DNA from: an uncultured Lachnospiraceae bacterium
Lineage (GTDB): Bacteria > Bacillota > Clostridia > Lachnospirales > Lachnospiraceae
Direction of reading: 5' to 3'
DNA length: 35,745 nt
Assembly: GCA_964653815.1 (NCBI GenBank)
Contig: CAZZHJ010000002.1
Coordinates: 1 to 35,745, forward strand
The notes below the pieces were generated by a model, which saw nothing but the letters and a program-made list of their open reading frames with translations, did no database searches and was not told where the DNA came from. Positions 5,499 through 30,340 of the stretch are shown here, one piece after another. Position numbers and translations under genes: made by a program. How positions within the stretch are numbered: position 1 is the stretch's first letter; each line of letters starts with the position of its first letter.

Positions 5499-5507
5499 GT
5501 GTAAGAT

Positions 5508-5984
5508 ATGAAAGACGAGTTAAAGCAGCAATATGCCCTTAGGATTACACAGGCAAATAAAACAGGACTTGTGGTTATTTTATATGAGATGTTCCTTACA
5601 TACATTGATGATGCGAAGATGGATTTAAAGGGACAGGATAACAAGACCTTTCGTAGTAATATCCAGCGGGCAAGAGGTTGTCTGAAAGAATTGATGGGTT
5701 CTTTGAATTATGATTATGAGCTGGCATCTAATCTCTTAAAGCTCTATATCTATGTGAGCAAACTGTTGGTAACGGCAGACTTACATAAAGATGAAAAGGC
5801 TCTTGATGAAGCATGTAAAATTATGCAGAAGCTTCATGATGCATATGAGACAATCAGTAAAGAGGACCATAGCGCTCCGGTGATGGGAAATACCCAGACT
5901 GTTTATGCAGGTCTTACCTATTCTAAAAATGATTTAACCGTCAATTTAGATGAAGGTGGAGGAAGCAGGGGGTTCTTCGTATAA
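5508..5984 (+). CDS. fliS: Flagellar export chaperone FliS
   Basis: ITQANKTGLVVILYE, ELMGSLN and LASNLLKLYIY pattern typical of FliS; immediately follows flagellin. Confidence 0.88.
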   Translation: MKDELKQQYALRITQANKTGLVVILYEMFLTYIDDAKMDLKGQDNKTFRSNIQRARGCLKELMGSLNYDYELASNLLKLYIYVSKLLVTADLHKDEKALDEACKIMQKLHDAYETISKEDHSAPVMGNTQTVYAGLTYSKNDLTVNLDEGGGSRGFFV

Positions 5985-6869: not shown

Positions 6870-7310
6870 ATGTTATTACTTTATAGCATATTGATCATCG
6901 CCCTCTTTACAGATTTTTATAAATGCCGTATTTATAACTGGCTGATTTTAGCAGGATATTTTGCCGGGTTTTGCCATTGCCTTTGCAATCAAGAAGTATG
7001 GTACATTTCCCTGGGAGACAGTCTTTTTACATTAGCGATTCTGTATCCGCTTTTTGTAATAGGAGCCTTCGGAGGAGGCGATATCAAGTTATTTATGGTG
7101 ATTGCCCTGTTTTTTGGATTGGAAGGAACCCTTAATATCATCATTTCATCCGTTATGGCAGGAGCGGTTCTTTCGATTCTGAAAATCATATTCATTCTGT
7201 TTCAAAAGAAAAATATTTCTTTGGCACATCTTTATATTCATTTTTCATTACCCATTTTAATCGGGACAATTCTAATACATCAAGGAGGCATACAATGGAT
7301 AACGTTTTAG
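6870..7310 (+). CDS. cpaA: Prepilin peptidase, A24 family (CpaA/TadV-like) #1
   Basis: Membrane protein with both catalytic Asp motifs: TDFYKCRIYN and GAFGGGDIKL. Confidence 0.88.
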   Translation: MLLLYSILIIALFTDFYKCRIYNWLILAGYFAGFCHCLCNQEVWYISLGDSLFTLAILYPLFVIGAFGGGDIKLFMVIALFFGLEGTLNIIISSVMAGAVLSILKIIFILFQKKNISLAHLYIHFSLPILIGTILIHQGGIQWITF

Positions 7311-8320
7311 CAATTTTTGATTCCGAAAAAAATTATATTAAGAAACTGGCAGCTTTTTTTGAAAGTCGTACCACAATGCCATTCAGTGTTTTGGCCTTTG
7401 ATAATCCTGAAAAGCTGACACGTCATTTTTCAGAAAACAAGGCGGCAGTACTGCTGGTCCACAAAAAGAAATGGCAGCCATCCATAAGGGAGCTGGCAAA
7501 CCAGATTATTTTGTTAGTTGAAGAAAAGGAAGAGGAACGTCTGGAATCGGATTTCACGGAAAGCCAACTGCCGGCAGTATGTAAATACCAGTCGGGAGAG
7601 GCTATAGCTAAAAAAATTCTGAGTATATGTTCTGTGGCAAAAGCGCCTCTTCTGCCTGAATATCAGATAGAATGTGCAAACAGCACCAGGGCCGAGGTTA
7701 TAGGAGTTTATACACCGGTAGGACGAAGCCTGCAGACCTCCTTTGCAATTACTTACAGCCGCCTTCGGGCCAATGCCCAAAAGACATTATACTTAAATTT
7801 TGAAGTATTTTCAGGGTTTGGGGCTTGGTTTGAAAGAAAATATGAAACAGATTTAATGGACTTAATGTATTTTCTGGATGGACCTACGGATAAATTTTTA
7901 TTGAAACTTGCGGGAATGAGTGAAAAATTTGGCGGGCTTGATTATATACCGCCTGCCATTTCATATGAGGATTTTATGCTGGTAAAGGCAAAAGAATGGA
8001 TACGGCTAATTCAGACTATTGCGGAAAAAAGCGATTATGAGGTTATCGTATTAGATTTGGGTTCCCAGATGCAGGGATTATTCGATATCTTATCCCTTTG
8101 TAAAAGAATCTATACCATTACCAGACAGGATGGAATTGCAATGGCAAAAATAAATGCCTATGAAAAAGCGTTGCAAATGTCCCAAAAGCAGGGAGTCCTG
8201 AATAAAACGGTAAAATGCAATTTGCCTGTTTTTCAAAGAATACCCCAGAAAGCGGCCGACCTTGGGTGCAGCCAGCTGGCGGACTATATGAGAAAAGAAC
8301 TGAGAGAGGTATTTTCATGA
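7295..8320 (+). CDS. CpaE/TadZ-like protein (pseudo-receiver plus degenerate ParA/MinD-type ATPase)
   Basis: N-terminal LAIFDSEKNY receiver-like start; VIGVYTPVGRSLQTSFA Walker-A-like region; YEVIVLDLG Walker-B-like region; precedes cpaF. Confidence 0.75.
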   Translation: MDNVLAIFDSEKNYIKKLAAFFESRTTMPFSVLAFDNPEKLTRHFSENKAAVLLVHKKKWQPSIRELANQIILLVEEKEEERLESDFTESQLPAVCKYQSGEAIAKKILSICSVAKAPLLPEYQIECANSTRAEVIGVYTPVGRSLQTSFAITYSRLRANAQKTLYLNFEVFSGFGAWFERKYETDLMDLMYFLDGPTDKFLLKLAGMSEKFGGLDYIPPAISYEDFMLVKAKEWIRLIQTIAEKSDYEVIVLDLGSQMQGLFDILSLCKRIYTITRQDGIAMAKINAYEKALQMSQKQGVLNKTVKCNLPVFQRIPQKAADLGCSQLADYMRKELREVFS

Positions 8321-9543
8321 AAAGTTTTGAAGAAATAAGAATAGAAAACCGGAGGGAACTGCTGGATAGAATCGATTATACCCGTGATATTTCAGACAAT
8401 GAAATCATGGAACTGATAGATGAAAGGGTTTTAAAAGCGGGCCGGGAATATGGTCTGACACTTCAGCAAAAGAGCAGGTTGAGAAAAGAACTTTTCGCAT
8501 CTATCCGGCAATTAGACGTTTTAGAAGAATTTCTTTCTGATAATACAGTAACAGAAATTATGGTAAATGGCCCCGACCATATTTTTATCGAAAAAGAGGG
8601 CAGGCTGGAGGAACAAAATGTACATTTTGAATCAAAGGAAAAGCTTTCTGATGTAATACAGCAGATTGTTGCAAAGGTCAACCGGATTGTAAATGAATCA
8701 TCGCCCATTGTGGATGCAAGACTGTCGGGAGGCGCCAGAGTTAATGTAGTTATGCCGCCCGTTGCCCTAAACGGACCGATTCTGACAATCCGGAGATTTC
8801 CGGACCGGCCTATGAGCGCAGAGGATTTATTTCAGAATCATTCTGTTACCAGGGAAGTTATGGAATTTCTTCAGTCGCTGATAAAGGCACGTTTTAATAT
8901 TTTTATCAGCGGCGGCACAGGAAGCGGGAAGACAACCTTTCTCAATATATTATCCCATTACATTCCCAAAGAGGAAAGAATTATAACTATTGAGGATAAC
9001 GCGGAATTACAGATTTTAAATATTCCAAATATTGTCCGTATGGAGACAAGAAATGCAAATGTAGAAGGATGTAAAGCAGTCAGCATACGTGATTTGATCA
9101 AAACAGCGCTTCGTATGAGGCCTGACCGGATTATTGTGGGAGAAGTACGTTCCGAAGAAGCCATAGACCTGCTTATGGCAATGAATACCGGACATGACGG
9201 TTCTTTATCCACAGGACATGCCAACAGTGCAAAGGATATGCTCATCCGTTTGGAAACCATGGTGTTAATGGGAATGGAGATGCCTCTGGATGCTATCAGA
9301 AGACAGATTGCATCGGCTGTTGATATTATTGTCCATTTAGGAAGGCTGCGTGACCATAGCAGGAAAGTTTTGGAGATTGTGGAGGTAACCGGTTATGTGG
9401 ATGGAGAGATTACTCTTTCACCTTTGTACACTTTCGTGGAAAACGGTAGTAATGAAAAAGGGCAGATACAGGGAAGCTTTGAGAGGAAAGAAGCTTTAAT
9501 ACATAGGGAGAAATTGAAAAGTGCAGGGATAGAGCTGGTATGA
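8317..9543 (+). CDS. cpaF: Flp pilus assembly ATPase CpaF/TadA
   Basis: GGTGSGKTT Walker A, TIEDNAEL Asp box, LRMRPDRIIVGEVR, NTGHDGSLSTGHAN His box. Start reassigned to ATG 8317 (ATGA overlap with the previous stop, GAGG RBS). Confidence 0.96.
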   Translation: MKSFEEIRIENRRELLDRIDYTRDISDNEIMELIDERVLKAGREYGLTLQQKSRLRKELFASIRQLDVLEEFLSDNTVTEIMVNGPDHIFIEKEGRLEEQNVHFESKEKLSDVIQQIVAKVNRIVNESSPIVDARLSGGARVNVVMPPVALNGPILTIRRFPDRPMSAEDLFQNHSVTREVMEFLQSLIKARFNIFISGGTGSGKTTFLNILSHYIPKEERIITIEDNAELQILNIPNIVRMETRNANVEGCKAVSIRDLIKTALRMRPDRIIVGEVRSEEAIDLLMAMNTGHDGSLSTGHANSAKDMLIRLETMVLMGMEMPLDAIRRQIASAVDIIVHLGRLRDHSRKVLEIVEVTGYVDGEITLSPLYTFVENGSNEKGQIQGSFERKEALIHREKLKSAGIELV

Positions 9544-10289
9544 AAAGTCAAAAAATTCAAAAAGAAATTGTTTTCTGTTCCCGGAAGGAAAAAGTCGTAA
9601 TCTTTTTAAAAGGTTTTATTCTTTTATCAATCATAGGTTTTTTGTTTTATAATTCCTGGATTGGAATTTTGGCAGGAAGTCCTCTTCTGCTTTTGTATTA
9701 CCGGTTAGAACATAAAAAGCTTTTAAAGAAAAAAGCAGAGCATCTGGAAAAACATTTCAAAGAAGCTTTGCTGAGCATTTTATCGGCATTAAAGGCGGGA
9801 CATTCCATAGAAAATGCTTTTAGAGAAGCTTACAGGGATTTGGAATACCGGTTTGGCAGTGAAGACGCAATGGTAAAAGAACTGCTTTTCATTAACAGAC
9901 AGGTTAAAAATAACATTCCCATAGAACAGCTTGTAGAAACATTTGCGAAAAAAACAGAATCGGAAGATATTTTGGATTTTGCACATGTCTTTAAAATTGC
10001 TAAAAAAAGCGGAGGCGACATGGGAAAAATAATGGAAAGAACTATTTCTATCATTACCCGGAGAATGGAAATCAAAGATGATATCAGAATACTGGTAGCA
10101 GGAAAAAAATATGAACAGCAGATTATGAATCTGGTCCCAATGGGTATTATTTTGTATATCCGGCTGAGTAATCCAGGCTATTTTAACGGGTTATATTGGA
10201 ATTTTGCAGGAATAGTGATTATGACGGCGGTATTGATTATTTATTTGGGAGCATATTGCCTGTCGGAACGAATTTTGGAGATAGCATAA
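9540..10289 (+). CDS. tadB: TadB (type II secretion F-family) membrane platform protein
   Basis: FKEALLSILSALKAGHSIENAF and IAKKSGGDM T2SSF domain with flanking TM helices. Confidence 0.88.
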   Translation: MKSQKIQKEIVFCSRKEKVVIFLKGFILLSIIGFLFYNSWIGILAGSPLLLLYYRLEHKKLLKKKAEHLEKHFKEALLSILSALKAGHSIENAFREAYRDLEYRFGSEDAMVKELLFINRQVKNNIPIEQLVETFAKKTESEDILDFAHVFKIAKKSGGDMGKIMERTISIITRRMEIKDDIRILVAGKKYEQQIMNLVPMGIILYIRLSNPGYFNGLYWNFAGIVIMTAVLIIYLGAYCLSERILEIA

Positions 10290-11599
10290 TGAGGAAAACA
10301 GAAAAAATAGAAAAGGCTGTAAGTCCCGTTATAAGAGAGCGCTTGAAACGACTGTATCCGGGAAAAGATGAAAATGAATTAGTCAAAGCTTTCTATATTA
10401 AAAAATTTAAATTAATGGGATTAACTCTGTGCGGAGGGATTGTTTTAGCTTTTTTACTTTTTATATCCAATGAGGTACAGGGAAAGATATCCGAAGAAGG
10501 AGAGATCATAAGAGATAATTACAGCGGCTTGACAATGGAAATTCCTGCAAGGGTATACAGCGAACAGTATGGGGAAATGGATGTAGAAATTGCGGTTGCT
10601 CCCCGAACTTATACAGAAGAAGAAAGAGAGGAAATTTTTCATGAGGCAGAGCAATGGCTGGAACAGGTAATGACAGGAAACAACGAAGGGCTTGATTGTG
10701 TCAGGGGAAATCTGGTATTTCCCGGTTTTTATAAAGATACAGATATAGCAATTGAGTATAGCAGCAGTAATTACGGACTGGTTAACGGAAGCGGAGAAGT
10801 AAAAAATCAGGAGCTGAAAAAAGAAGAAAAGGTTTTGATCAGGGCAGAATTTTCTTACGATAACGTTACAAAAACAAAAGACTATGAAGTAACGGTTTAT
10901 CCGCCTGTTTTAACACCTTCGGAAGAATTTAAAAAAACTCTTGAAGAGACGCTGATAACAGAAAATATTCTCCAAAAAGAGAATGAAGTATTTTTGCTTC
11001 CGAAGCAAATCGGAAAAGAGCAGGTAACTTTTCGGGAAAGAGGAAATAAAAATTTTATATACATATTCTTTTTGGGTATTCTGTGTGCTGCATGCCTGTA
11101 CAAAGGAATGGATAAAGATTTGGACAAGCTTTATGAAAAGCGTCAGCAAAAATTATTATTCCGCTATCCGGAATTCGTCAGTAAGCTGGCATTACTAACG
11201 GGTACGGGAATGAGCGTTACCGGAGCCATCAGGCGTATTTACGCAGATAAAAAAGATGAAAAGGGAGACCCGCTTTATGAGGAGTTGGGAATTTTTGTAA
11301 GAGGATTAGACAATGGGATGCTGGAAGAACATGCGTTGGAGGAATTTGGAAAGCGAAGCGGTCTAATACAGTATCGAAAATTCTGCACGCTGTTATCAAT
11401 CAATATGAAAAAAGGGTCTCTGAATTTAAAGACCATGCTGGAAAATGAGGCAGAGGAAGCCTTTACAAACCACCAGCAGCAGATTAAAAAAATGGGTGAA
11501 GAGGCAGGGACAAAACTGCTGCTGCCTATGATCATGATGTTGGGAGTTGTGGTTGTCATTATTATGATACCGGCTTTCATGACATATCAGATATCTTAA
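10289..11599 (+). CDS. tadC: TadC-like membrane platform protein with a large extracytoplasmic insert
   Basis: C-terminal YPEFVSKLALLTGTGMSV and GEEAGTKLLLPM T2SSF domain. Start at ATG 10289 overlaps the tadB stop. Confidence 0.82.
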   Translation: MRKTEKIEKAVSPVIRERLKRLYPGKDENELVKAFYIKKFKLMGLTLCGGIVLAFLLFISNEVQGKISEEGEIIRDNYSGLTMEIPARVYSEQYGEMDVEIAVAPRTYTEEEREEIFHEAEQWLEQVMTGNNEGLDCVRGNLVFPGFYKDTDIAIEYSSSNYGLVNGSGEVKNQELKKEEKVLIRAEFSYDNVTKTKDYEVTVYPPVLTPSEEFKKTLEETLITENILQKENEVFLLPKQIGKEQVTFRERGNKNFIYIFFLGILCAACLYKGMDKDLDKLYEKRQQKLLFRYPEFVSKLALLTGTGMSVTGAIRRIYADKKDEKGDPLYEELGIFVRGLDNGMLEEHALEEFGKRSGLIQYRKFCTLLSINMKKGSLNLKTMLENEAEEAFTNHQQQIKKMGEEAGTKLLLPMIMMLGVVVVIIMIPAFMTYQIS

Positions 11600-11615
11600 G
11601 AAAGGAGGAAAAGCC

Positions 11616-11783
11616 ATGAAAACATTCAAGCAGTTTTTGAGAGATGAAAAAGGCATAGGAACAGTGGAAATGATACTGATTCTGGTTGTACTGATTGCGC
11701 TGGTGCTGATTTTTAAAGAACAGATGACAGACCTGGTAAACAATATTTTTGACAAAATCAGCAAACAAAGTAACAAGGTATGA
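11616..11783 (+). CDS. flp: Flp1-family type IVb major pilin (55 aa; not in ORF track)
   Basis: AAGGAGG RBS, then MKTFKQFLRDEKG|IGTVEMILILVVLIALVLIFKEQMTDLVNNIFDKISKQSNKV: class III signal with Gly -1, Glu +5 and a hydrophobic helix. Confidence 0.93.
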   Translation: MKTFKQFLRDEKGIGTVEMILILVVLIALVLIFKEQMTDLVNNIFDKISKQSNKV

Positions 11784-11828
11784 GCGGTCAAACGGTAGAA
11801 AAAGAACGTAAAGGTTCGGGGAGGCATC

Positions 11829-13262
11829 ATGAAGAAAGTAAAACAGACAGAGGGTTCTATAACGATTTACCTTGCCCTTATATTTACAATCATATTGTCG
11901 TTTCTTTTATTTATCATAGAAGGAGCGAGGGAAAATGCAATACGGATGAAGGCGGAACTTGCCATGGATCTTTCCATGAGTTCAATATTTGCTGAATATA
12001 ACAGACAATTGCTTGAGCAGTATGATTTGTTTTTTATTGATGCCTCTTACGGACAGACAGACGCCTCCACAGAGCGTATTGGAGAGCATTTGAAAGGTTA
12101 TATGGATGATAATTTTCAAATAGGAGGTGATTGGGGTATCGTAAGAGATTTATTATCCATGAAGACGGAAGATGTAAATATAATCGATTATTCCCTGGCA
12201 AGCGATGAAGAAGGGGTTTTAATAAAGCGTCAGGCAGTTTCTTACATAAAAGACTTGTACGGAATTTCTTATTTGGAACAGCTGCAAAAGCAAATGGATA
12301 CCATTGAAAAAGAAAGTCTTTTTACCAGGGATGTGACAGGAGAAAGGCTTGCTAATCAAAGTGCCATAGATAATTTTGAAATTCCTCCAAAACAAGTAGG
12401 GGAAGATGAGTGGGAGGAAGTTGAATTAAATAATCCGGCAGACGGGGTTAATGCGGCAAGAGGCATTCTATCCCTAGTTATTGATGGAGAAAGTGAGTTG
12501 TCTGTGTCCGGTGTTAACTTATCAAATTACATTTCTGCAAGGAATTGCAATAAAGGCAGCGGTCTGGTGGGCAGAGAAAAAACCGACATAACCGATGAAC
12601 TGATTTTTAATGAGTATCTGATTCATAAATGCGGCAGCTATACGAATCCCAAAGAAACAGGTGCGCTGCAGTATCAATTGGAATACATTCTTATGGGAAA
12701 GAATAATGATGTGGAAAATTTAAAAGCGGTTGTCAACAGGCTGCTTTTGTTGAGGGAGACTGCAAATGTGGTTTATCTGTTTTCGGATAGCGGCAAAATG
12801 GCGGAAGCAGAAGCTCTGGCGCTGGCTGTCACTTCGGCAATTGCATTGCCGGAACTGGCAGAATTGGTAAAGATTTCGTTGATTTTTGCATGGGCATATG
12901 CGGAAAGTGTTTATGATGTACGCACTCTTTTAAAGGGAGGAAAAATCCCGCTAATAAAAAGCAGTGAAACATGGCATTACAGTATTTCCGGAATGTTGGA
13001 TTTTGCATCAGATACATCTGTGGATACATCAGATGGTATAGGGATTACTTATGAGGAATATCTACGTATTTTTCTGGCATCAGAAAATGTGCAAATAAAA
13101 ACAAGCAGGGCAATGGATATTATAGAAATGGATGTACGTAAATGTGAAGGAAACAAATATTTCAGGTTGGACACCTGCGTGGATTATCTGCAGGCGGAAG
13201 TATTGATATCCAGCAGTTATGGATATAATCACAGCATTACAAGGTCCTATTGCTATTATTAA
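11829..13262 (+). CDS. Large TadG-like pseudopilin (DUF5702-like)
   Basis: Class III-like signal TEG|SITIYLALIF (no Glu +5, as in TadG/GspK types); AEYNRQLLEQYDLF; YQLEYILMGK. Confidence 0.75.
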   Translation: MKKVKQTEGSITIYLALIFTIILSFLLFIIEGARENAIRMKAELAMDLSMSSIFAEYNRQLLEQYDLFFIDASYGQTDASTERIGEHLKGYMDDNFQIGGDWGIVRDLLSMKTEDVNIIDYSLASDEEGVLIKRQAVSYIKDLYGISYLEQLQKQMDTIEKESLFTRDVTGERLANQSAIDNFEIPPKQVGEDEWEEVELNNPADGVNAARGILSLVIDGESELSVSGVNLSNYISARNCNKGSGLVGREKTDITDELIFNEYLIHKCGSYTNPKETGALQYQLEYILMGKNNDVENLKAVVNRLLLLRETANVVYLFSDSGKMAEAEALALAVTSAIALPELAELVKISLIFAWAYAESVYDVRTLLKGGKIPLIKSSETWHYSISGMLDFASDTSVDTSDGIGITYEEYLRIFLASENVQIKTSRAMDIIEMDVRKCEGNKYFRLDTCVDYLQAEVLISSSYGYNHSITRSYCYY

Positions 13263-13286
13263 TAAAATGAAATGGGGTGACAAAAG

Positions 13287-14237
13287 ATGTCCTTTTTGAA
13301 AAGAAACAAATGGATTCATAGTGCATTATCTCTCCAGACACATTTCAAAAAACACACTTACAAAAATTATTTGATTTTCCCCAAGATCAAAAAACACAAA
13401 AGTAACTACTTTTCAAAAAGGATATCTTCTGTCATCCCATTTACCTCGGAGGGCAGTCTGTCTATAGAGGCTGCTCTCATTATTCCGATTTTTATGTTTG
13501 TTATAATGGCTGTTTTATCCTTTGTGGAAATACTCAGGCTTCAGATAAAAATAGACAATGCTATGCAGCAATGCGCAAAGGAATTGTCCGTATATGGATA
13601 TGCCTTTGATGAGTTTGGCAAGGATATGGTCGGGGATCTGTCTTTTCCTGTAGAAACTTTATTTTCGGAAACATATATAAAAAACCGGGTTATTGCAGAG
13701 GTGGGAGAGGAATACCTTAAAAATTCCCCCGCAGAAGGAACTTCCTTGCATTTTACCGGCAGCCGAATTATGAAAGATGATAGAATTGAAATTCGCTGTA
13801 GTTATTATGTTACACCTTTCTTTTCGTTATCACCCCAGACGGGATTTCTCACAGGGACGACTGCTGTGGCCAGGGCATTTACCGGATATGATAATATGGC
13901 CGCAGTATCTCTGGAGGACAAGGAAGAATATGTTTTTGTAACGCCAAATGGTACAGTCTATCACAGAAACCGGAGCTGTCATTATTTGGATTTATCCATA
14001 GAAAAGGCTTTTACTGACCAATTATCGGGGCTGAGAAATGAAGATGGAGGTATTTATAAAAAGTGTCCTATTTGTGGAGGAGAAAACAGCGGAACAGTTG
14101 TATTTATTACAAAATATGGGGACAGATATCATCAGGATATTTTGTGCAGCGGATTAAAAAGGACAATTGAAGCAATACCCATTTCGCAAACAGGAAGCAG
14201 GGCGCCGTGTACAAAATGTGGCGGAGAAAGGGAATAG
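13287..14237 (+). CDS. TadE-like minor pilin with two C-terminal His/Cys (Ada-like) metal-binding repeats
   Basis: EG|SLSIEAALIIP TadE signal; two YH-x4-C...C-x2-C repeats. Confidence 0.8.
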   Translation: MSFLKRNKWIHSALSLQTHFKKHTYKNYLIFPKIKKHKSNYFSKRISSVIPFTSEGSLSIEAALIIPIFMFVIMAVLSFVEILRLQIKIDNAMQQCAKELSVYGYAFDEFGKDMVGDLSFPVETLFSETYIKNRVIAEVGEEYLKNSPAEGTSLHFTGSRIMKDDRIEIRCSYYVTPFFSLSPQTGFLTGTTAVARAFTGYDNMAAVSLEDKEEYVFVTPNGTVYHRNRSCHYLDLSIEKAFTDQLSGLRNEDGGIYKKCPICGGENSGTVVFITKYGDRYHQDILCSGLKRTIEAIPISQTGSRAPCTKCGGERE

Positions 14238-14238
14238 A

Positions 14239-14670
14239 ATGATTTGGATACAGGGTCTTTTGGCAGTATTGCTGGCAGCTATGGCAATAGGGGATATAAA
14301 GTATAAAAAAATAAATATATGGGGCATAGGAGTGGGGAGCATTCTGGCAATGGCAGGGCTTATTATTTACGGACAGTCCCGGATTAGAAGTCTGGCGGCA
14401 GGAATTGGAATTGGTCTGACTGTATGTTTACTGCATTGGGTCACACAAAAAGGAATTGGTTTGGGAGATGGTATGTTAGCGGTACTAATCGGGAGTTGTA
14501 CAGGAGCAGAATTTACAATCATCTGCCTGTGTGCAGCATTTTTTCTAGCATCGTTTGCGGCATTGGCCTTGTGCTGCTTAAAAAGAATGGGGCGAAAAAG
14601 CAGGATTCCCTTTGTCCCCTTTTTGTTTCTTGGATATATGATAACTCTCGGCATGAAAGGGGGCGGATAA
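14239..14670 (+). CDS. Prepilin peptidase, A24 family #2
   Basis: AIGDIKYKKI and GIGLGDGML catalytic Asp motifs; C-terminal RIPFVPFL. Start reassigned to ATG 14239. Confidence 0.87.
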   Translation: MIWIQGLLAVLLAAMAIGDIKYKKINIWGIGVGSILAMAGLIIYGQSRIRSLAAGIGIGLTVCLLHWVTQKGIGLGDGMLAVLIGSCTGAEFTIICLCAAFFLASFAALALCCLKRMGRKSRIPFVPFLFLGYMITLGMKGGG

Positions 14671-14671
14671 T

Positions 14672-15094
14672 GTGATGGGTTGTTTAAAAGATCATAAAGG
14701 AAGTTTTGCCATAGAGGCAGCAATTATTATCCCATTTATTGTCTGTCTGCTTATGACAATTCTGTTTTTTGCATTTTTTCTATATGACAGGTGTTCCCTA
14801 GAAAGGGCGGCAGGATCAGCAGCATTAAGAGGAAGCCAGGAAATATGGGAATCTTCGGACGTACAATACCAGAAGGCAAATGAGGGCATTGATTTTGTTT
14901 TATCCCATAATCTGTTGGGAACTGATTGTGTGGACAAGCAAATTAAAATAAGCGGAAATGAAATAAAGGTTGTATTAAAAATGCAATATCATAAGTGGGA
15001 ATTTCAGGCAGAGTCCCAAAAGAAGGTTGTAAATCCTATAAACTTTATTAGAATTTGCAGAAAAGGGAAAGGAGTTATAGAAAAAATACAATGA
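14672..15094 (+). CDS. TadE-family minor pilin
   Basis: KG|SFAIEAAIIIP class III signal plus hydrophobic helix. Start is GTG 14672 or ATG 14675. Confidence 0.85.
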   Translation: MMGCLKDHKGSFAIEAAIIIPFIVCLLMTILFFAFFLYDRCSLERAAGSAALRGSQEIWESSDVQYQKANEGIDFVLSHNLLGTDCVDKQIKISGNEIKVVLKMQYHKWEFQAESQKKVVNPINFIRICRKGKGVIEKIQ

Positions 15095-21122: not shown

Positions 21123-21632
21123 ATGGCGCTTTCGCCGGTTATGAGAATGCAGCTTATAAACGGAGTGGAAAGAGTGCTTCATGCACCGGGCAATCCAACC
21201 CATGAATTAAAGGAAATGAGTCTGGTGTTGGATTACCATATGGATAAAGAAGATATAGGAGCGTTGGCGAAGGATGTGGCGGGGGCTTTAAAGGCCCACA
21301 GCCGCACCTTTGCCAATGTGCGTTGTAATCTGGTTCACTGGAAAAGGGATGAAATCATACAAAATGAGGTCTGCCCCCTGGCAATGGTACAATTAGGACG
21401 CTTTCTGGAAAATTATGAACAGATTGAAGAGACTAAAAAGGTTGAAATCCTCTGCGAATATTTGAAACGGTTTCATGCCAGGAGCAAACTGATACTGGTG
21501 CTTAGTGATTCCGCTTATAGCATTGAAAGCAGGGAGCAGCTAAAAGGCGCCCTTATTCCTTTTTTACAGTACAAGCTTTTATTTGCCGGTAATAATACTG
21601 TTAATAAGCTGAAGGAGACAGGGACACCATAG
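21123..21632 (+). CDS. Hypothetical protein, possible degenerate vWA-like alpha/beta fold
   Basis: ORF starts 11 nt after tyrS; alternating strand/helix pattern (MSLVLD, VRCNLVHW, KLILVLSD). Confidence 0.6.
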   Translation: MALSPVMRMQLINGVERVLHAPGNPTHELKEMSLVLDYHMDKEDIGALAKDVAGALKAHSRTFANVRCNLVHWKRDEIIQNEVCPLAMVQLGRFLENYEQIEETKKVEILCEYLKRFHARSKLILVLSDSAYSIESREQLKGALIPFLQYKLLFAGNNTVNKLKETGTP

Positions 21633-22317
21633 AAAGCAGAGTTTCCTGCTGGCTGTGACTGATCTGGATCTTTCCTTGACAGAGATTTATCAGGTTCCGG
21701 TTTTTCAAGCTTTCAATGATGCGGTTTATTGTCCGAAGGGAACAGCCTGCCTTTGCGGCTAATTCCTCCCGCTTTATGGGAAGACGGATTTGCCCGTTTA
21801 CGGCTTTATGGCGAAGGCATTCCGTAAGCAGAAGATGAAGACAGCGGGTTTCGTAATCCATGTATAGAAAATGGCGTTCGAAACTAACCTGTGTGGAAAG
21901 CTGTTTCATAAGCATTTGTGTGCGGAGAAAAAGAGCATGGGCATCCGAGCTGATCCATGTGCGGTAAATGCCTGCCGGCAGGGAGAGACAGATACAGTCC
22001 GTATATGCCATAACCGTTGAAATACTGTATTCCCCTCTGGAAAACATTTCGTAGTCGCCCACAATTTCAAAAGGAGCAGCCTCTAAAAGACAAAGAGGAA
22101 ATTCCGTTGTATTCTCATCTAAAATCTGCAGCTTTCCCTTTAACAGAAAATAAACGGTATGCGGGGGCGTATTGCAGTAAATCAATATTTTCCCTTTCAA
22201 AATCCGGTTTATATTCAGACAATCCTGCACCCGGGCAGGGCATTGTTTAAAAAAGTCTTCAAGCTTAGAAAATACTTCCTGTGAGGAACAATAAGTTAAG
22301 CAGTCTTTTATTTTCAT
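21601..22317 (-). CDS. Crp/Fnr family transcriptional regulator
   Basis: cNMP-binding beta-barrel (VYFLLKGKL, IVGDYEM, STVMAYTDC) and C-terminal HTH KREELAAKAGCSLRTINRII. Confidence 0.92.
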   Translation of the reverse strand: MKIKDCLTYCSSQEVFSKLEDFFKQCPARVQDCLNINRILKGKILIYCNTPPHTVYFLLKGKLQILDENTTEFPLCLLEAAPFEIVGDYEMFSRGEYSISTVMAYTDCICLSLPAGIYRTWISSDAHALFLRTQMLMKQLSTQVSFERHFLYMDYETRCLHLLLTECLRHKAVNGQIRLPIKREELAAKAGCSLRTINRIIESLKNRNLINLCQGKIQISHSQQETLLSMVSLSPSAY

Positions 22318-24350: not shown

Positions 24351-24400
24351 AAAATATATGCCTATAGTCAATATATAGATTGATTATAGGCATATTTTTA
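24351..24400. terminator. Bidirectional terminator between convergent deoB and gntR
   Basis: 17-bp stem ATATGCCTATAGTCAAT / ATTGATTATAGGCATAT flanked by A and T runs. Confidence 0.75.
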
Positions 24401-25141
24401 TTTTTGTCCGCCGCCCTGATTGCTGATCACAAAATTCAGATGATAATACTCAGGAATAAAATAGAATTTATTTCTTGCAAAAGGACGCTCCATTTTATCC
24501 AGATGTAAAGCCTCAATCAAAATCAGGGGAGTGTCTAAAGGAATCTTTAAAAATTCAATTTCTATGGCATTGGCATGAATGAGTTTGATTTTCATGTCCA
24601 TTTTTTTAGAATAATGAAACAGTGTTTCTAAAATCAATTCTTTAATAGAGTCCGTATCTGACGTGTTCAACTTTAATTCATCAAAAAACATAGCCGGAAT
24701 CTGGGTAAACGAATACCCTAAAACGGTTTTCTCCGATTGAAAAACACAATTGCATGCCAAAACCAGATCGCTGGCCCCTAAAGATAAACGGTCTCTTGCA
24801 ATATCCGTAGGCGCTCCGTAATTGTAGGTTATGGCAGTTTCCGTAATAGGCAGCTTATTCATGGAAAGAAGGGGATGGATGATTTGTTCCTTTGAGGAAT
24901 GTTTGACACTGGGAGCTACCAGCGTGCCCTTTCCCTGGGATTTGATAATCATGCCGTCCTCGTGGAGAATAGCAAGAGCCTGTCTTAAGGTATTCCGGCT
25001 GACGCCGTATTTTTGTGAAAGAGCAGTTTCACCGGGGAGCGTTTCGTTTGGAGGATAAACGCCGTCCGTAATGTCTTTATAAAGAGAATTGTATACCCCG
25101 ATATAAGCAGGTATGTTTTCCGGGTGTAATTTGGTATTCAA
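24398..25141 (-). CDS. GntR family regulator (HutC/UTRA type)
   Basis: LPGETALSQKYGVSRNTLRQAL...QGKGTLV wHTH plus UTRA-like C-domain. Likely TTG start at 25141 with AAGGAG 8 nt upstream. Confidence 0.9.
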   Translation of the reverse strand: MNTKLHPENIPAYIGVYNSLYKDITDGVYPPNETLPGETALSQKYGVSRNTLRQALAILHEDGMIIKSQGKGTLVAPSVKHSSKEQIIHPLLSMNKLPITETAITYNYGAPTDIARDRLSLGASDLVLACNCVFQSEKTVLGYSFTQIPAMFFDELKLNTSDTDSIKELILETLFHYSKKMDMKIKLIHANAIEIEFLKIPLDTPLILIEALHLDKMERPFARNKFYFIPEYYHLNFVISNQGGGQK

Positions 25142-25157
25142 TAAAACATCTCCTTTA

Positions 25158-25331
25158 AACTTGATGAACAAGTTGATCATATCATAAATACGAGTATCTG
25201 CATCCATCCTTTGATGTGGCGGACATATGGGAATACTTTCCACGTTAAAACTCATTTTATCATAATAATCAGATGTTGACAAGGTGGATGGACTATGCTA
25301 GACTTTAATCATGTTGAACATGTTGAACAAG
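25158..25331. promoter_or_regulatory. Divergent control region: SigA promoter plus repeated GntR-type operators
   Basis: TTGACA(25276)-N17-TAGACT(25299) with extended TG; AACTTGATGAACAAGTT at 25158-25174; CATGTTGAACATGTTGAACAAG at 25310-25331. Confidence 0.7.
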
Positions 25332-25374: not shown

Positions 25375-26169
25375 ATGATTCGGATATGTAGTGACAAAGA
25401 TGAAGAAGTACTGCTCCGGTTTTTAAAAAGAGATTCTATGCTGCACACATATATCATTGCCGATATGGAACGGTACAGATTTGATAAGCCATATCAAAAA
25501 ATCTATATGATGGAGAATAAGAATTTCTGCGAAGGTGTTTTTCTGGAATACTACAATAATTTGATATTTTCGAAGGTTGAAGGAAATATAGAACCGGAAG
25601 AGATCATCAAATATATTTTACCGGAAATTACAAATATAATGGGCGAGTTGAAGGTTGTGAAAAAAGTTGCAAATTATTTGGGGTTATCAGGCAGCATGAC
25701 GACTAACAATTTATATGCACAAAAGAGAGCCGCAAAACAATATAGCGGTGATTTGCCGGATGTGCGGATGGCCGGATTGCGTGATGTGGACGCTATTTAT
25801 GATTTTTTAATGAGCTTTCCCGAATTTACGGAGATATACGCCCAAAAGGAAATGATTGAAAACCGGATAGAAAAAGGAGAAGGCATTCACGTTTTGCTGG
25901 AAAAAGACGGAAAGATAGTGGCGCACGGAAATAGTGCCGCATCTACAGATGAAACCTGTTTTCTGGGAGGAATCTGTGTTTTGCCCGGCGAACGTAAAAA
26001 GGGGTATGCAATGGCTGTTGTACAGATGCTGTGTAACGAAATACACAAGCAGAACAGAATCCCCTGTGTGTTTGCTCCGGAAGAAAAAGAATACACCATT
26101 TTCCAAAGGCTGGGTTTTGAAAAATGCGGAAAATGGGGAACAATTCAAATGAAAGGAGATAACAGATGA
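25375..26169 (+). CDS. Two-domain GNAT family acetyltransferase-like protein
   Basis: LGGICVLPGERKKGYA acetyl-CoA loop; RLGF C-terminal motif. Confidence 0.82.
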   Translation: MIRICSDKDEEVLLRFLKRDSMLHTYIIADMERYRFDKPYQKIYMMENKNFCEGVFLEYYNNLIFSKVEGNIEPEEIIKYILPEITNIMGELKVVKKVANYLGLSGSMTTNNLYAQKRAAKQYSGDLPDVRMAGLRDVDAIYDFLMSFPEFTEIYAQKEMIENRIEKGEGIHVLLEKDGKIVAHGNSAASTDETCFLGGICVLPGERKKGYAMAVVQMLCNEIHKQNRIPCVFAPEEKEYTIFQRLGFEKCGKWGTIQMKGDNR

Positions 26170-27581
26170 ATAAAAACAAACTAAAAGTCAGCGAAATTTT
26201 GGGATACGCTGTGGGAGGCATCGGAGATGCGACCTCTTACAATTTTGTAATTGCATTATTTTCGTTTTTTATGACTACAATTGCAGGTATCAGTCCGGCT
26301 GTGGCAGGTATGATCATATCGGCAGGCGTTGTCTGGGATGCTGTTACCGATCCTGTTGTGGGATATTTAATAGATAATACGAAGGGAAGATACGGAAAAA
26401 GAAGACCCTGGATGCTGGGTTCGGCAATTCCTTTGGGGGCTGCCATGATTCTGATGTTTTTAAAGGTGGATCTTCCCCAGACACAAAAGATTGCTTATTA
26501 CCTCATTATGGTATTTGTGTTCTGGCTGTCCTATACGGCATTTAACATTGCATATTATTCCTTTGGATCTGTCATTACCGAAGACGACAGCGAAAGAGTA
26601 AAGGTGCAGGCATACAGGAATGTATTAAGCTATGTGGGGCTCTTCTGCGCCAGCTCGGTGCCTACCTTTGGAGTGGCAAAGCTGGTGGAAAAAGGATTTA
26701 CAGACGGAGATGCATGGTCCATTATGGCGGTGGTGGCAGCGGTTATTTCCGTTGTATCTATCATTCTGATGTGGAAATTTACAAGAGGAAAGGAATCGGC
26801 GGAAGAAGTAAGCAATAACCGGGAAAAAATGAATGTGGGCGGATTTTTTAAAGACATTGTGTGCCTGATGAAAATGAAGCCTTATCTGCTCATTATTGTG
26901 TGTGCGCTTCTTGCAAATATTTATATGACGCTTTTCAATTCCAGTCTGCTGTATTATGTCTGCTACAACATGGGATTGAGCGAGGCTCAGGCTTCCATGA
27001 TGTTTACTACCAGTAATATTGTAGCCATCCTGTTCAGTCCTGTTATCGCAAAGCTGGTAGAAAGATTTAATAAAACTAATGTTTTTGTAGGGACAATGGT
27101 CTTCAGCGGTCTGGTAATGATCATCGCAAAGTTTACAGGCATTCCGTCTATAGCTGTAGGATGTGTGTATGTAGCTCTTACCGGTCTTGGAACCTGTGCA
27201 TACTGGCTGTGTATTTTCAACTTCCTGTTTGATGTGGTGGATTATAACGAGTTTAAGACGGGAACCCGCCGGGACGGAATCATTATGTCATACTATTCTT
27301 TCCTGTTAAAACTGGGCGGAGCTGCGGCAGCGGCAGTTCAGGGCATCCTTTTGGAAAAGAGCGGATTTAATGTGGAGCTGGCTGTACAAAACGAATCTGC
27401 ATTAGGTATGATTGAAACCATGTTTACTATTCTGCCGGGTATTATCATGATAGGCTCCGGACTTGTAATGCTTTTAACACCCTTGAAGGATAAAGAAATG
27501 GATATTCTTAGAATTGAATTGGACAAAAAACGTGCCGGCGAAGAATATTCCGCAGAAAAATTTGCTTCTATTATGAAATGA
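26166..27581 (+). CDS. MFS transporter, glycoside-pentoside-hexuronide (GPH):cation symporter family
   Basis: WDAVTDPVVGYLIDNTKGRYGKRRPW and DVVDYNEFKTGTRRDG motifs; about 12 TM helices. Confidence 0.93.
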   Translation: MNKNKLKVSEILGYAVGGIGDATSYNFVIALFSFFMTTIAGISPAVAGMIISAGVVWDAVTDPVVGYLIDNTKGRYGKRRPWMLGSAIPLGAAMILMFLKVDLPQTQKIAYYLIMVFVFWLSYTAFNIAYYSFGSVITEDDSERVKVQAYRNVLSYVGLFCASSVPTFGVAKLVEKGFTDGDAWSIMAVVAAVISVVSIILMWKFTRGKESAEEVSNNREKMNVGGFFKDIVCLMKMKPYLLIIVCALLANIYMTLFNSSLLYYVCYNMGLSEAQASMMFTTSNIVAILFSPVIAKLVERFNKTNVFVGTMVFSGLVMIIAKFTGIPSIAVGCVYVALTGLGTCAYWLCIFNFLFDVVDYNEFKTGTRRDGIIMSYYSFLLKLGGAAAAAVQGILLEKSGFNVELAVQNESALGMIETMFTILPGIIMIGSGLVMLLTPLKDKEMDILRIELDKKRAGEEYSAEKFASIMK

Positions 27582-27640: not shown

Positions 27641-28492
27641 ATGAACCAAAACAAAGCAGCAGTGGTTATGCAGACAGATTTCGGAAAAGGAATTGCTGTA
27701 TGTACCATGCAGGGAGTATGCACTATGGTTGATAAGGAATTAAGGGTATTTGATTGTTCCCACGATATTAATAATTTTGATACGTATCAGGCATCCATTT
27801 CTCTGGATTACATTGTGGATTTCTGGCCAACAGGTACCGTATTCATTTCTGTTGTAGACCCGGGTGTAGGGACAAGCCGCCGTGCCAGCGTGGCAAAACT
27901 GAAAAACGGAAGCTATGTAGTAACGCCTGATAACGGAACATTGACACATTTAAAGGAACGAATCGGTATTGAGGAAATTCGCATTATAGACGAAAAAGTC
28001 AACCGTTTAAAAAATACGGAGAAATGCAATATTTTCCATGGAAGAGATTTATTTGCATATTGCGGGGCCAGGCTGGCATCGGGAATTATTACATTTGAAG
28101 AAGTAGGGCCTGCTTATAATGTAAATGAAATTGTAACCCATGAACTTCTTCCCTATAAGGTAGAGGAATCTGTAATAACAGGTATGATTGCCAATGCGGA
28201 TTATCATTTCGGCTTAATCTGTTCCAATATACCGGCGGAAGTTTTTGAAACGGAAAATATCCGGCACGGGGATTATGTCCATGTAACCATCCAAAAGAAA
28301 GGGCAGGAAGCTCCTGCATTTGAAGGGGAAGTTCCTTTTTGCCAGTCATTCGGCTTTGTGAAAGAAGGAGAACCCTTGCTGATGGTAAGCGAATCGTTAC
28401 ACATCCAGGCGGCGTTAAACTGTGCCAACATGGCGGAAAAATATGATTTACACGCAGGAAGCGACTGGACAATGAAAATAGAAAAATCTTAA
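27641..28492 (+). CDS. SAM hydroxide adenosyltransferase (DUF62, SAM hydrolase / halogenase superfamily) paralog 1
   Basis: QTDFG, VVDPGVGTSRR, TPDNG, FHGRDLF. Confidence 0.92.
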   Translation: MNQNKAAVVMQTDFGKGIAVCTMQGVCTMVDKELRVFDCSHDINNFDTYQASISLDYIVDFWPTGTVFISVVDPGVGTSRRASVAKLKNGSYVVTPDNGTLTHLKERIGIEEIRIIDEKVNRLKNTEKCNIFHGRDLFAYCGARLASGIITFEEVGPAYNVNEIVTHELLPYKVEESVITGMIANADYHFGLICSNIPAEVFETENIRHGDYVHVTIQKKGQEAPAFEGEVPFCQSFGFVKEGEPLLMVSESLHIQAALNCANMAEKYDLHAGSDWTMKIEKS

Positions 28493-28503
28493 GGAGGATG
28501 AAT

Positions 28504-29367
28504 ATGAAACCTGTTATTGTAATGCAGTCAGATTTTGGAACAGATTCCGGTTTGGTATCATGTATGCACGGAATTTGCAAAATTGTGGACCCTCAGTTAC
28601 AGATATTTGATATCACACATGTTTTACCCGCTTTTGATATTGAAGCTGCTTCTTTCTGCCTTCAGTATACGGTTCCATGCTGGCCCGAGGGAACGGTATT
28701 TGTTTCTGTAGTAGATCCCGGAGTCGGAACTGACAGGCGTGCCAGTGTGGCAAAATTGAAAAATGGAAGCTATGTGGTAACACCGGACAACGGAGCCCTT
28801 ACTTATTTGCATCAGATGATTGGCGTAGAAGAAATAAGGGAAATAGACGAGACCGTAAACCGTTATCCGAAAACTATGGAAATCAGCGTTTTCCACGGAC
28901 GGGATTTGTTTTCTTACTGTGCGGCAAGGCTTGCGTCGGGTCTGATTACTTTTGAAGAAGTGGGGCCTGAATATCCCTTAGAAGAAATCGTATTGCACAA
29001 AACTTATGCATCCTGCAAAAAAGGTAATGGCGTGGAAGGAAGCATCTTATGGTTTGACCCCTTCGGCAGCGCTGGTACATCTATTAAAAATGCTGACCTT
29101 GCACAGTGCGGCTTTAAAATCGGCGATAAAGCAATAGTGAAAATATATGATGAATCCACACTGTTGTTTGAAGGAATCATTCCATATGAGAAGTCCTTTG
29201 GATACGTTAAAAAGGGAAATCCGGTAATTTTTAACGGACTTACCTCTTTTGTGACCATTGCCGTAAATGAAGGCAGTTTTGCAGACCGGTATCAATTAAA
29301 TCAGGAAAAAGTATATAGAGTAGAAATTATAGAAAGGGGTAAAGATGTGGACACAGAATATTCCTAA
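28504..29367 (+). CDS. SAM hydroxide adenosyltransferase (DUF62) paralog 2
   Basis: QSDFG, VVDPGVGTDRR, TPDNG, FHGRDLF. Start 28504 preferred because ATG 28498 abuts the AAGGAGG RBS. Confidence 0.92.
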   Translation: MKPVIVMQSDFGTDSGLVSCMHGICKIVDPQLQIFDITHVLPAFDIEAASFCLQYTVPCWPEGTVFVSVVDPGVGTDRRASVAKLKNGSYVVTPDNGALTYLHQMIGVEEIREIDETVNRYPKTMEISVFHGRDLFSYCAARLASGLITFEEVGPEYPLEEIVLHKTYASCKKGNGVEGSILWFDPFGSAGTSIKNADLAQCGFKIGDKAIVKIYDESTLLFEGIIPYEKSFGYVKKGNPVIFNGLTSFVTIAVNEGSFADRYQLNQEKVYRVEIIERGKDVDTEYS

Positions 29368-30340
29368 AGTAGAACTTCATTGTCATCTGGACGGTTCCAT
29401 TCCCCTGTCTGTTATTAAAGGACTGTGTCAAAAAGAAAAAATTGCCATACCCGGAAGTGAAAAGGCATTCCGCAAACTGGTGGAAGCCGATGAAAATTGC
29501 AAAAGCTTATGTGAATACTTAGAGGCTTTTAAACTTCCTTTGTCCTGTCTGGCAACAGAAGAGTCCTTTTATGAGGCGGCTTATGGAGAGGCTTTGGAAG
29601 CATCAAAAGAAGGCGTGCTTTATCAGGAACTCCGTTTTTCTCCCCTTTTATCAGAAAAGCCGGGACTTTCTTCAGAAAGTATCATAGAAGCTGCCATAGA
29701 AGGACTTGTCAGGGCAAAAGCGGAATGTGGAATACATGTGGAACTGCTTTTGTGCGGAATGCGTCATTTCACGGAGGCACAGAATTTCCGGATTCTGGAA
29801 CTAACAAAAAAATATCTGTCCTGGGGCGTATGTGGTGCAGACCTTGCAGGAGATGAGGCGGCATTTGCAAACGAAAAATTTCTCTCTTATTTTAAACGCG
29901 CATCCGCAATGGATATTCCTTTTACGGTGCATGCAGGAGAGTGCAGAAGAGCAAAGAATATTGAAATTGCAGTTTTGGAGGGGGCCCGCAGAATAGGTCA
30001 TGGAATTGCAATGAGTGGAAATGAACAGCTTTTGGAAATACTTTGTAAAAAGAATATCGGGGTAGAATTGTGCCCCAACAGCAATGTGCAGACAAAAGCA
30101 GTTTCTTCATGGCAGGATTATCCTTTCAGAGAATTTCTGGAACGGGGAATCAAAATATCTATTAACACGGATAACCGCACTGTTACCAATACAACCATTA
30201 CAAATGAGTTAAATGTGTTAAAAGAGAAATTTGCTCTGACAATAGAGGAGGCGGCAGCTATTATGAAACAGGCCATGGAAACGTCTTTTGCAGAAGAAAG
30301 CCTGAAAAAGGACATTATCAAAAAACTATCGTCTGATTGA
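29345..30340 (+). CDS. add: Adenosine deaminase family protein
   Basis: PKVELHCHLDGS, TVHAGE, RIGHG, ELCPNSN and INTDN amidohydrolase motifs. Confidence 0.93.
   Translation: MWTQNIPKVELHCHLDGSIPLSVIKGLCQKEKIAIPGSEKAFRKLVEADENCKSLCEYLEAFKLPLSCLATEESFYEAAYGEALEASKEGVLYQELRFSPLLSEKPGLSSESIIEAAIEGLVRAKAECGIHVELLLCGMRHFTEAQNFRILELTKKYLSWGVCGADLAGDEAAFANEKFLSYFKRASAMDIPFTVHAGECRRAKNIEIAVLEGARRIGHGIAMSGNEQLLEILCKKNIGVELCPNSNVQTKAVSSWQDYPFREFLERGIKISINTDNRTVTNTTITNELNVLKEKFALTIEEAAAIMKQAMETSFAEESLKKDIIKKLSSD

What the first reader, a model, noticed from the sequence alone, without database searches (positions are those of the whole stretch)
27641..29367. Tandem DUF62 paralogs keep the catalytic triad but have rewired substrate-binding residues
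Seen: the N-domains are nearly identical over GTVF(I/V)SVVDPGVGT(S/D)RRASVAKLKNGSYVVTPDNG, while the C-domains diverge strongly. Compared from memory with fluorinase FlA: the adenine-binding Asn of IDHPFGN is Leu in paralog 1 (ADYHFGL) and Ser in paralog 2 (FDPFGS). The Met-binding loop DLGTTDDS becomes DFGKGIA (shortened, no second Asp) and DFGTDSG. The carboxylate-binding YLNSR becomes MVSES and IFNGL. Established: active sites in this family sit between the N-domain of one subunit and the C-domain of its neighbour. Inference: the true substrate may have a modified base or aminoacyl arm, the two copies may split (S,S)/(R,S) specificity, or they may form hetero-oligomers with hybrid sites.
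Basis: partly seen in the sequence, partly recalled or inferred. Interest (0 to 1): 0.8.

Follow-up and report, generated by a model that had tools for sequence, protein, structure and literature searches.

The report
Paired enzymes scavenging a SAM look-alike
A gut-bacterial operon keeps two different enzymes of the SAM-splitting (DUF62) family side by side, each with an intact catalytic centre but a fixed change where SAM's carboxyl group normally binds, so together they likely strip adenosine from an imported SAM look-alike such as decarboxylated SAM, which would give this puzzling family a new, testable substrate.

Summary
Both genes are intact DUF62 proteins with the Asp-Arg-His triad. 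Ordinary changes, also seen in solved hydrolases or the common Firmicute clade: Asn215→Ser (31/32 of clade C), loss of Asp21, loss of Arg270. Clade-fixed changes: paralog 1 (clade A) has Asn215→Leu (65/65) and Ser269→Glu (64/64); paralog 2 (clade B) has Ser269→hydrophobic (73/73). Ser269 is kept in all five displayed PDB sequences and 47/48 ordinary ones. A is followed by B in 20 of 26 informative loci, and their distances correlate (r=0.91). They sit in a GntR-operator-controlled GNAT–importer operon, with adenosine deaminase beside them in four loci. Best reading (0.4): an inducible scavenger of an adenosyl-sulfonium lacking the carboxylate (dcSAM or N-acetyl-dcSAM), probably as mixed trimers. 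An A2B model scored 0.86 (best control 0.00), but this may reflect likeness to solved trimers. An A-plus-dead-paralog fusion also exists. No substrate was tested. The scan earlier noted related ECF–DUF62 operons on other DNA, but not this GPH-linked pair.

The parts
27641..28492 (+). DUF62 paralog 1, clade A (283 aa). Triad D73/R80/H133; ribose Asp13; aromatic cage F46/F190/F237; L192 at FlA Asn215; E251 at FlA Ser269
28498..29367 (+). DUF62 paralog 2, clade B (289 aa; second ATG at 28504). Triad D73/R80/H133; Asp12; F46/F189/F234; S191 at Asn215; L248 at Ser269
28214..28216 (+). Leu192 codon of A: Leu in place of the adenine-binding Asn, 65/65 in clade A
28391..28393 (+). Glu251 codon of A: Glu in place of the carboxylate-binding Ser, 64/64 in clade A and 43/43 in clade D
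29239..29241 (+). Leu248 codon of B: hydrophobic in place of the carboxylate-binding Ser, 73/73 in clade B
26166..27581 (+). GPH-family (MelB-like) cation symporter, presumed importer
   Evidence: TIGR00792 257.8 bits, cut-off 231
25375..26169 (+). Two-domain GNAT acetyltransferase-like protein; homologues are fused to the GntR in 9 clade-D operons
   Evidence: no PDB sequence hit
24398..25141 (-). GntR/HutC (UTRA) regulator, divergent; likely TTG start at 25141
25161..25172 (.). Putative GntR operator, site 1 (core WTGWTNAACAWG)
25310..25331 (.). Putative operator, two tandem sites just downstream of a sigma70-like promoter (25276-25304)
   Evidence: 5 matches in the window, 0.34 expected
29345..30340 (+). 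Adenosine deaminase, overlapping the end of B
   Evidence: TIGR01430 282 bits, cut-off 216.55; next to B in the window, L045, L173, L183
22424..24332 (+). deoD (purine nucleoside phosphorylase) and deoB (phosphopentomutase): neighbouring nucleoside catabolism, no operator match in front

Best explanation
This is a GntR-linked operon with a GPH symporter and two DUF62 enzymes that likely import and split an adenosyl-sulfonium whose side arm lacks SAM's carboxylate, most likely decarboxylated SAM (dcSAM) or its N-acetyl form, and that probably assemble into mixed trimers. Shown: intact triads and purine/ribose pockets; clade-fixed loss of the carboxylate-binding Ser (Glu in A, Leu in B); conserved A-then-B pairing; a shared operator motif. 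Inferred from family chemistry: triad-activated water attacks C5' and releases adenosine plus a thioether (3-methylthiopropylamine or its N-acetyl form). Inferred from neighbours: adenosine would go through add, deoD and deoB, and the GNAT would acetylate the amine to detoxify it or to make or clear the GntR signal. Predicted: hybrid sites N(A)+C(B) and N(B)+C(A). Odds for the parts: carboxylate-free arm about 0.55, specifically dcSAM or acetyl-dcSAM about 0.4, co-assembly about 0.45.
For: Ser269 binds the Met carboxylate in FlA (PMC1282579, passages). It is Ser in all 5 PDB sequences displayed, in 32/32 clade C and in 15/16 unassigned homologues, but Glu in 64/64 A and 43/43 D, and hydrophobic in 73/73 B, 59/73 of which carry an acid one residue earlier. 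An Asp at the carboxyl position is how spermidine synthase selects dcSAM over SAM (PMC1282579; an analogy, different fold). Triad: 65/65 A, 72/73 B. Aromatic cage kept. Purifying selection: synonymous/non-synonymous codon differences 74/22 and 66/26 against L003. Pairing: A is followed by B in 20 of 26 informative loci and by a triad-less paralog in 4; mirror r=0.91 over 35 pairs. The same operator lies before all 4 ECF-linked A-B loci and 10 of 12 GNAT-bearing D-operon loci, none of which were used to derive it, tying A+B and D to one kind of signal. GNAT is present in 14 of 15 A-B loci with enough flank. Adenosine deaminase follows B in 4 loci. Fusion P0240 (A-type plus triad-less half; 32 members). 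A2B model: score 0.86, best control 0.00; the mark was reached by 116/157 solved and 2/215 mismatched pairs; runs agree at least 88%; partner pLDDT at least 86. Solved homotrimers exist, so this may show likeness only.
Against: No substrate was measured. Arm-binding residues vary among real SAM hydrolases (Asp21, Arg270), so Ser269 could also be dispensable. dcSAM keeps its amine, yet the amine-binding Asp21 is lost in A and B and Asp210 is only 46/65 in A; this fits the acetylated form or another arm better. A's Leu for Asn215 is not explained by dcSAM. The window's own B lacks two acids most B proteins have (G193, G247). Two same-genus genomes with A+B also encode SpeD and SpeE, so hydrolysing (S)-dcSAM could be wasteful. 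Two genomes carry A+B and D together, so they are not simply equivalent. add was found in only 1 of 5 genomes tested, and deoD/deoB lack the operator. L038 has A alone. G1459 has B without A, in a decayed operon. P-X-Y-Z arrays occur without A (L056, L184), so the dead paralog need not pair with A. Co-inheritance in one operon gives mirror trees by itself.
Confidence: 0.4

Rival explanations
1. A and B are independent homotrimers for two related carboxylate-free or otherwise arm-modified substrates: the two sulfur epimers of one compound, or the compound before and after GNAT acetylation.
For: Both N-domains keep the triad and both C-domains keep the aromatic cage. Clade D genes occur as the only DUF62 in some genomes (G169, G212). 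Solved members are homotrimers (PMC4859513).
Against: Triad-less and N-domain-only paralogs, and the A-plus-dead fusion, show that this clade can use mixed assemblies. A almost never occurs without a partner.
Confidence: 0.2
2. The substrate is SAM itself; A and B split the (S,S) and (R,S) epimers or bind (R,S)-SAM in a new way, with Glu251 holding the alpha-amine.
For: Homologues differ in epimer choice: FlA1 prefers (S,S) and StDUF62 (R,S) (PMC12120602). The arm pocket already varies among hydrolases. C and D often share one ECF importer.
Against: Ser269 is kept both in the halogenases displayed and in the hydrolases displayed. A cytoplasmic (S,S)-SAM hydrolase would oppose SAM synthetase (inference). 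The operon is under a GntR operator, and no SAM or T-box riboswitch was found in the window.
Confidence: 0.17
3. The base is modified (N6-substituted, deaminated or deaza), at least at sites that use A's C-domain.
For: Asn215, which binds the adenine amino group, is Leu in 65/65 A and in none of 192 other representatives. B varies (S39/N19/T10/I5).
Against: Ser is normal in clade C (31/32). Clade D, under the same operator, keeps Asn (42/43). An ordinary adenosine deaminase follows B in 4 loci. The final Asn loop and the three aromatics are conserved.
Confidence: 0.12
4. The pair cleaves or transfers a non-sulfonium 5'-substituted nucleoside, or a diet-derived nucleoside conjugate that GPH imports as a glycoside.
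For: All arm-binding residues are remodelled; the importer is a sugar-type symporter; the family's physiological role is doubted (PMC12120602).
Against: Triad chemistry needs a good leaving group at C5' (established chemistry); every characterised member uses a sulfonium (PMC10491745).
Confidence: 0.07
5. Both are ordinary, redundant (R,S)-SAM hydrolases and the changes are drift.
Against: Leu192 and Glu251 are invariant across 65 representatives whose C-domains are only about 49% identical to one another. Both paralogs are kept together under purifying selection.
Confidence: 0.04

Closest known systems
DUF62 SAM hydroxide adenosyltransferases / (R)-SAM hydrolases (PH0463, T. maritima 2ZBU, T. 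thermophilus 2CW5, MJ1651, StDUF62, SaciSAMH, HvSAMH)
   Same: Both Pfam domains, the fold (TM about 0.8), the Asp-Arg-His triad, the ribose Asp, the purine aromatic cage, and a trimer-type interface.
   Different: The carboxylate Ser is Glu or Leu; the adenine Asn is Leu in A; the genes come as a fixed pair in an importer-GNAT-GntR operon; scores are far below the NCBIfam (R)-SAM hydrolase cut-offs.
Fluorinase FlA / chlorinase SalL
   Same: Fold and overall SAM-pocket layout; about 22-25% identity in structure alignments.
   Different: The halogenases lack the triad; A and B have it and lack Arg270/Ser269. TIGR04507 scores 60 and 68 against a cut-off of 400.
Firmicute ECF-linked DUF62 clades C and D (Mts/Hts-type ECF importers; the families are named in PMC3654945 tables)
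   Same: Same protein radiation. D shares Glu at Ser269, the GntR/GNAT module and the operator.
   Different: C keeps the full SAM arm pocket. D keeps Asn215, Asp210 and an acid at Asp21 and can stand alone. A+B mostly use a GPH symporter. None of these has an enzyme assay in the papers found.
Spermidine synthase (aminopropyltransferase) dcSAM selection
   Same: An acidic residue at the carboxyl position excludes SAM (Asp101).
   Different: Unrelated fold and reaction; an analogy only.

Membership tests
DUF62 / SAM hydroxide adenosyltransferase family | PF01887 plus PF20257 above cut-off | tested here: met
   143/58 and 154/58 bits against cut-offs 26.3/25.5
DUF62 / SAM hydroxide adenosyltransferase family | Two-domain fold like PH0463/SalL | tested here: met
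   AlphaFold models pLDDT 92.5 and 91.1; Foldseek TM 0.75-0.84 to PH0463, 2ZBU and SalL
DUF62 / SAM hydroxide adenosyltransferase family | Asp-Arg-His triad | tested here: met
   D73, R80, H133 in both; aligned to PH0463
DUF62 / SAM hydroxide adenosyltransferase family | IDxxFGN adenine motif (PMC4859513) | tested here: not met
   FGL in A, FGS in B; FGS is also normal in clade C, so the motif is not universal
(R)-SAM hydrolase (NCBIfam NF053629, NF058624) | Score above the equivalog cut-off | tested here: not met
   102/470 and 94/350 (A); 116/470 and 136/350 (B); these models are narrow
(R)-SAM hydrolase | Carboxylate-binding Ser (FlA Ser269) | tested here: not met
   Glu251 and Leu248
(R)-SAM hydrolase | Hydrolyses (R,S)-SAM to adenosine and methionine | not testable with these tools
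   needs an assay
DUF62 family | Homotrimer | tested here: inconclusive
   Only A2B was modelled (0.86, control 0.00); homotrimers were not modelled
SAM-dependent halogenases (FlA, SalL) | No triad; halide pocket; TIGR04507 | tested here: not met
   Triad present; 60 and 68 bits against 400

The most novel reading that the evidence does not exclude
Gut Clostridia carry an inducible route that imports decarboxylated SAM (or the acetylated form) and splits it with an obligate A/B hetero-oligomer whose active sites are hybrids of two paralogs. This would be the first DUF62 enzyme with a substrate other than SAM and the first mixed-subunit member, and clades A, B and D together would mark a dcSAM-scavenging branch of the family.
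Probability: 0.2. Interest if true: 0.8.

Novelty: new variant of a known kind. Interest (0 to 1): 0.6.

Why it matters
The physiological job of DUF62 enzymes is openly disputed (PMC12120602). This locus supplies sequence-defined subfamilies with an invariant pocket change, a candidate importer, a regulator with a predicted operator, and cultured carriers: Blautia producta/coccoides for type A and Enterocloster clostridioformis for type B. A short substrate panel can therefore test whether the family has radiated onto SAM derivatives. If dcSAM is the substrate, gut bacteria would consume a polyamine-pathway intermediate. Hybrid active sites would also be a handle for engineering fluorinase-fold enzymes.

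Tried and rejected
Gene conversion or recent duplication as the cause of the near-identical N-domain: rejected. S-ribosylmethionine (base-free substrate): considered because of the GPH importer, then disfavoured because the three purine-stacking aromatics are kept in A and B. Riboswitch control: no Rfam hit in the window; among 10 loci, no SAM or T-box hit. deoD/deoB in the same regulon: no operator match. The first operator matrix was mis-centred and gave noise; it was replaced by an exact pattern. A true A-B fusion: not found among 93 longer proteins (weak evidence). Single-copy A(N)/B(C) chimeras P0187, P0217 and P0224 are one-contig singletons and were not used as evidence. GNAT function: no PDB sequence hit, and the atlas gave no answer. 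Expression: no RNA holder listed; three raw RNA runs laid 0 reads and one run of uncertain type held relatives' contigs, so no test. The 50%-representative search was still queued at submission. Plasmid search: only distant homologues (at most 42% identity). The three primary DUF62 papers (PMC7736106, PMC3063057, PMC2692205) were not held, so hydrolase-specific ligand contacts were mapped through FlA/SalL numbering; those papers or their supplements may describe Firmicute clusters. Literature searches (listings and abstract starts only, 40 of 102 listed) showed no paper on a dcSAM-cleaving or heteromeric DUF62; subscription journals are not covered.

Full report
1. Observation. The window holds two tandem ORFs, P0001 (27641-28492) and P0002 (28498-29367). 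Both carry the two DUF62 Pfam domains, fold like PH0463, T. maritima 2ZBU and SalL, and are the only two DUF62 genes in this 68%-complete genome. Identity is 92% over residues 63-99, 63% over the N-domain and 23% over the C-domain. The triad D73/R80/H133 is present in both. The conserved stretch is not a recent copy: 19 of 37 codons differ synonymously, and own-partner identity (0.70) equals other-partner identity (0.69) over 35 pairs. The closest named relatives are Lachnospiraceae MAGs at 92%.

2. Which substitutions matter. FlA contacts come from PMC1282579 (passages) and PMC12080486 (passages): Asp16 ribose; Asp21/Ser23/Asp210 amine; Asn215 adenine; Ser269/Arg270 carboxylate; aromatics 50/213/254. 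I built a FastTree of 257 representatives (418 sequences clustered at 85%) from homologue searches and loci, and tallied residues by clade. Clades A and B were gathered with the window's proteins as queries, so their size reflects sampling. Ordinary changes: Asn215→Ser is 31/32 in clade C, the common ECF-linked Firmicute type. Asp21 is Gly in PH0463 and Ser in 2ZBU. Arg270 is absent from the three hydrolase-type PDB sequences displayed. Special changes: clade A (65 representatives, support 98) has Leu at Asn215 in 65/65 and Glu at Ser269 in 64/64 (one truncated). Clade B (73, support 96) has a hydrophobic residue at Ser269 in 73/73 (Leu 68), with Asp or Glu just before it in 59/73. Ser269 is Ser in 5/5 PDB sequences displayed, 32/32 clade C and 15/16 unassigned. 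A third clade, D (43), has Glu there in 43/43 while keeping Asn215 (42), Asp210 (42) and Glu at Asp21 (41).

3. Context. The window reads gntR(-) | GNAT > GPH symporter > A > B > adenosine deaminase, with deoD-deoB on the other side of gntR. Of 122 loci annotated, 30 hold an A gene, and 4 of these end at the contig edge. Of the other 26, 20 have B next (two partial, one frameshifted), 4 have a triad-less paralog next, 1 is E-E-A-C, and 1 (L038) has A alone. Several loci are duplicate records, so about 16 are independent. In whole-genome searches every genome with A had B adjacent: 3 of 401 family-level, 4 of 18 genus-level, own genome included in each. The class sample (399 scored) gave no further A or B score among its matches; I read the loci of 9 of its 16 matching genomes, not all. 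The order sample (401) gave one lone B, in an operon with a frameshifted GNAT and a GPH remnant. A and B distances correlate at r=0.91 (35 pairs: 11 same-locus, 24 paired by equal contig length). The importer is GPH or ECF. GNAT accompanies 14 of 15 A-B loci with enough flank, and is fused to the GntR in 9 D-type loci. Adenosine deaminase follows B in the window, L045, L173 and L183; other nucleoside enzymes follow in L041 and L048.

4. Regulation. A palindromic motif (core WTGWTNAACAWG) was read from 9 gntR-GNAT spacers. It has three sites in the window (5 matches, 0.34 expected) and 9 sites in the whole 2.25-Mb genome. Out of sample, it lies before all 4 ECF-linked A-B loci and 10 of 12 GNAT-bearing D-operon loci, and not before deoD. 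A+B and D therefore likely answer to the same kind of signal, and both lack Ser269. No riboswitch was found in the window.

5. Mixed assembly. Active sites lie between protomers (PMC12120602, parts 1-2 of 3 read). Sister arrays contain paralogs with a degenerate N-domain but an intact C-domain (clade P: triad lost in 5/5, Asn215 and Ser269 kept in 5/5), and paralogs of 146-177 aa with the N-domain only, three with and three without an intact triad. P0240 is a natural 550-aa fusion of an A-type enzyme to a P-type half, in a cluster of 32 members, some labelled Solobacterium. Such halves make sense only in hetero-oligomers (inference). An A2B model scored 0.86 against a best control of 0.00 (mark reached by 116/157 solved and 2/215 mismatched pairs; at least 88% run agreement; partner pLDDT at least 86). 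It put A 187-190/248-251 against B's N-domain loops and B 188-189/245-248 against A's. Because homologous trimers are solved, this shows compatibility, not preference. P arrays also occur without A (L056, L184), and both A and B keep full catalytic halves, so independent homotrimers remain possible.

6. Mechanism. Shown: intact catalytic and nucleoside halves, a remodelled arm pocket, fixed pairing, importer, operator. Inferred: hydrolysis at C5' of a sulfonium, giving adenosine. The loss of the carboxylate Ser with gain of acid recalls how spermidine synthase selects dcSAM. I therefore put dcSAM or N-acetyl-dcSAM first; the latter is recalled as a mammalian metabolite and was not confirmed by my search. 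The acetylated form would also explain the loss of amine-binding Asp residues and the linked GNAT. Against this: A's Leu is unexplained, two carriers make their own dcSAM, add is patchy (1 of 5), and A+B co-occur with D in two genomes.

7. Comparison and novelty. These are DUF62 family members by domain, fold and triad, but they fail the Ser269 and IDxxFGN features and the narrow (R)-SAM hydrolase models. Characterised members act on SAM only (PMC10491745, passages; bioRxiv 2025.08.29.672840, part 1 of 4). My searches showed no description of this pair, of a dcSAM hydrolase or of a heteromeric DUF62, but three primary papers could not be read. Earlier notes of this scan describe the ECF-linked C/D operons and five-paralog arrays on other DNA; none matched this GPH-linked stretch. 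Verdict: a new variant of a known kind, interest 0.6.

Noticed in passing
L073:3877-5418, L085, L086, L124, L125, L126, L128, L129, L132: GNAT-GntR/UTRA fusion proteins (about 510 aa) in ECF plus clade-D operons; an unusual acetyltransferase-regulator architecture.
   Followed up: partly
L055, L068, L080, L088, L056, L069, L098, L115, L184: Arrays of up to five DUF62 paralogs, including triad-less and N-domain-only members.
   Followed up: partly
P0240 cluster; P0051; P0119: Fusions of two DUF62 units. P0240 recurs in 32 members; P0051 and P0119 are singletons.
   Followed up: partly
one search hits P0242-P0260, P0264-P0303: DUF62 fused to a lactonase (SGL), an alpha/beta hydrolase, an amidohydrolase, TYW1 or a metallophosphoesterase in several sequences each.
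   Followed up: no
L053, L066, L093, L110, L137, L176, L177, L179, L180: An M20 peptidase sits between the ECF genes and DUF62 (clade D, E or C).
   Followed up: no
L189 and L183 (G1459): Decayed copy of the operon: operator kept, GNAT frameshifted, GPH and A deleted, B and add intact.
   Followed up: yes
P0187, P0217, P0224, L105:733-1569: Chimeric paralogs crossing over in the conserved N-domain core; singletons, possibly assembly artefacts.
   Followed up: partly
window 21601-22317 (-) and 24356-24395: Crp-type regulator divergent from deoD-deoB; a long hairpin between the convergent deoB and gntR.
   Followed up: no
window 4377-5984 and 6870-15094: Flagellin-like and FliS-like genes followed by a Tad/Flp-type pilus-like cluster (prepilin peptidases, CpaF-like ATPase, TadB/C/E-like); judged by eye.
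   Followed up: no
L046:9417-9513: Purine riboswitch just downstream of the ECF-A-B-GNAT-GntR operon, ahead of a MATE-like gene.
   Followed up: no
clades C/D versus A/B, residues 54 and 57: Interface residues R54/Q57 are invariant in C and D but S or C / Y or F in A and B; possibly an assembly code.
   Followed up: no
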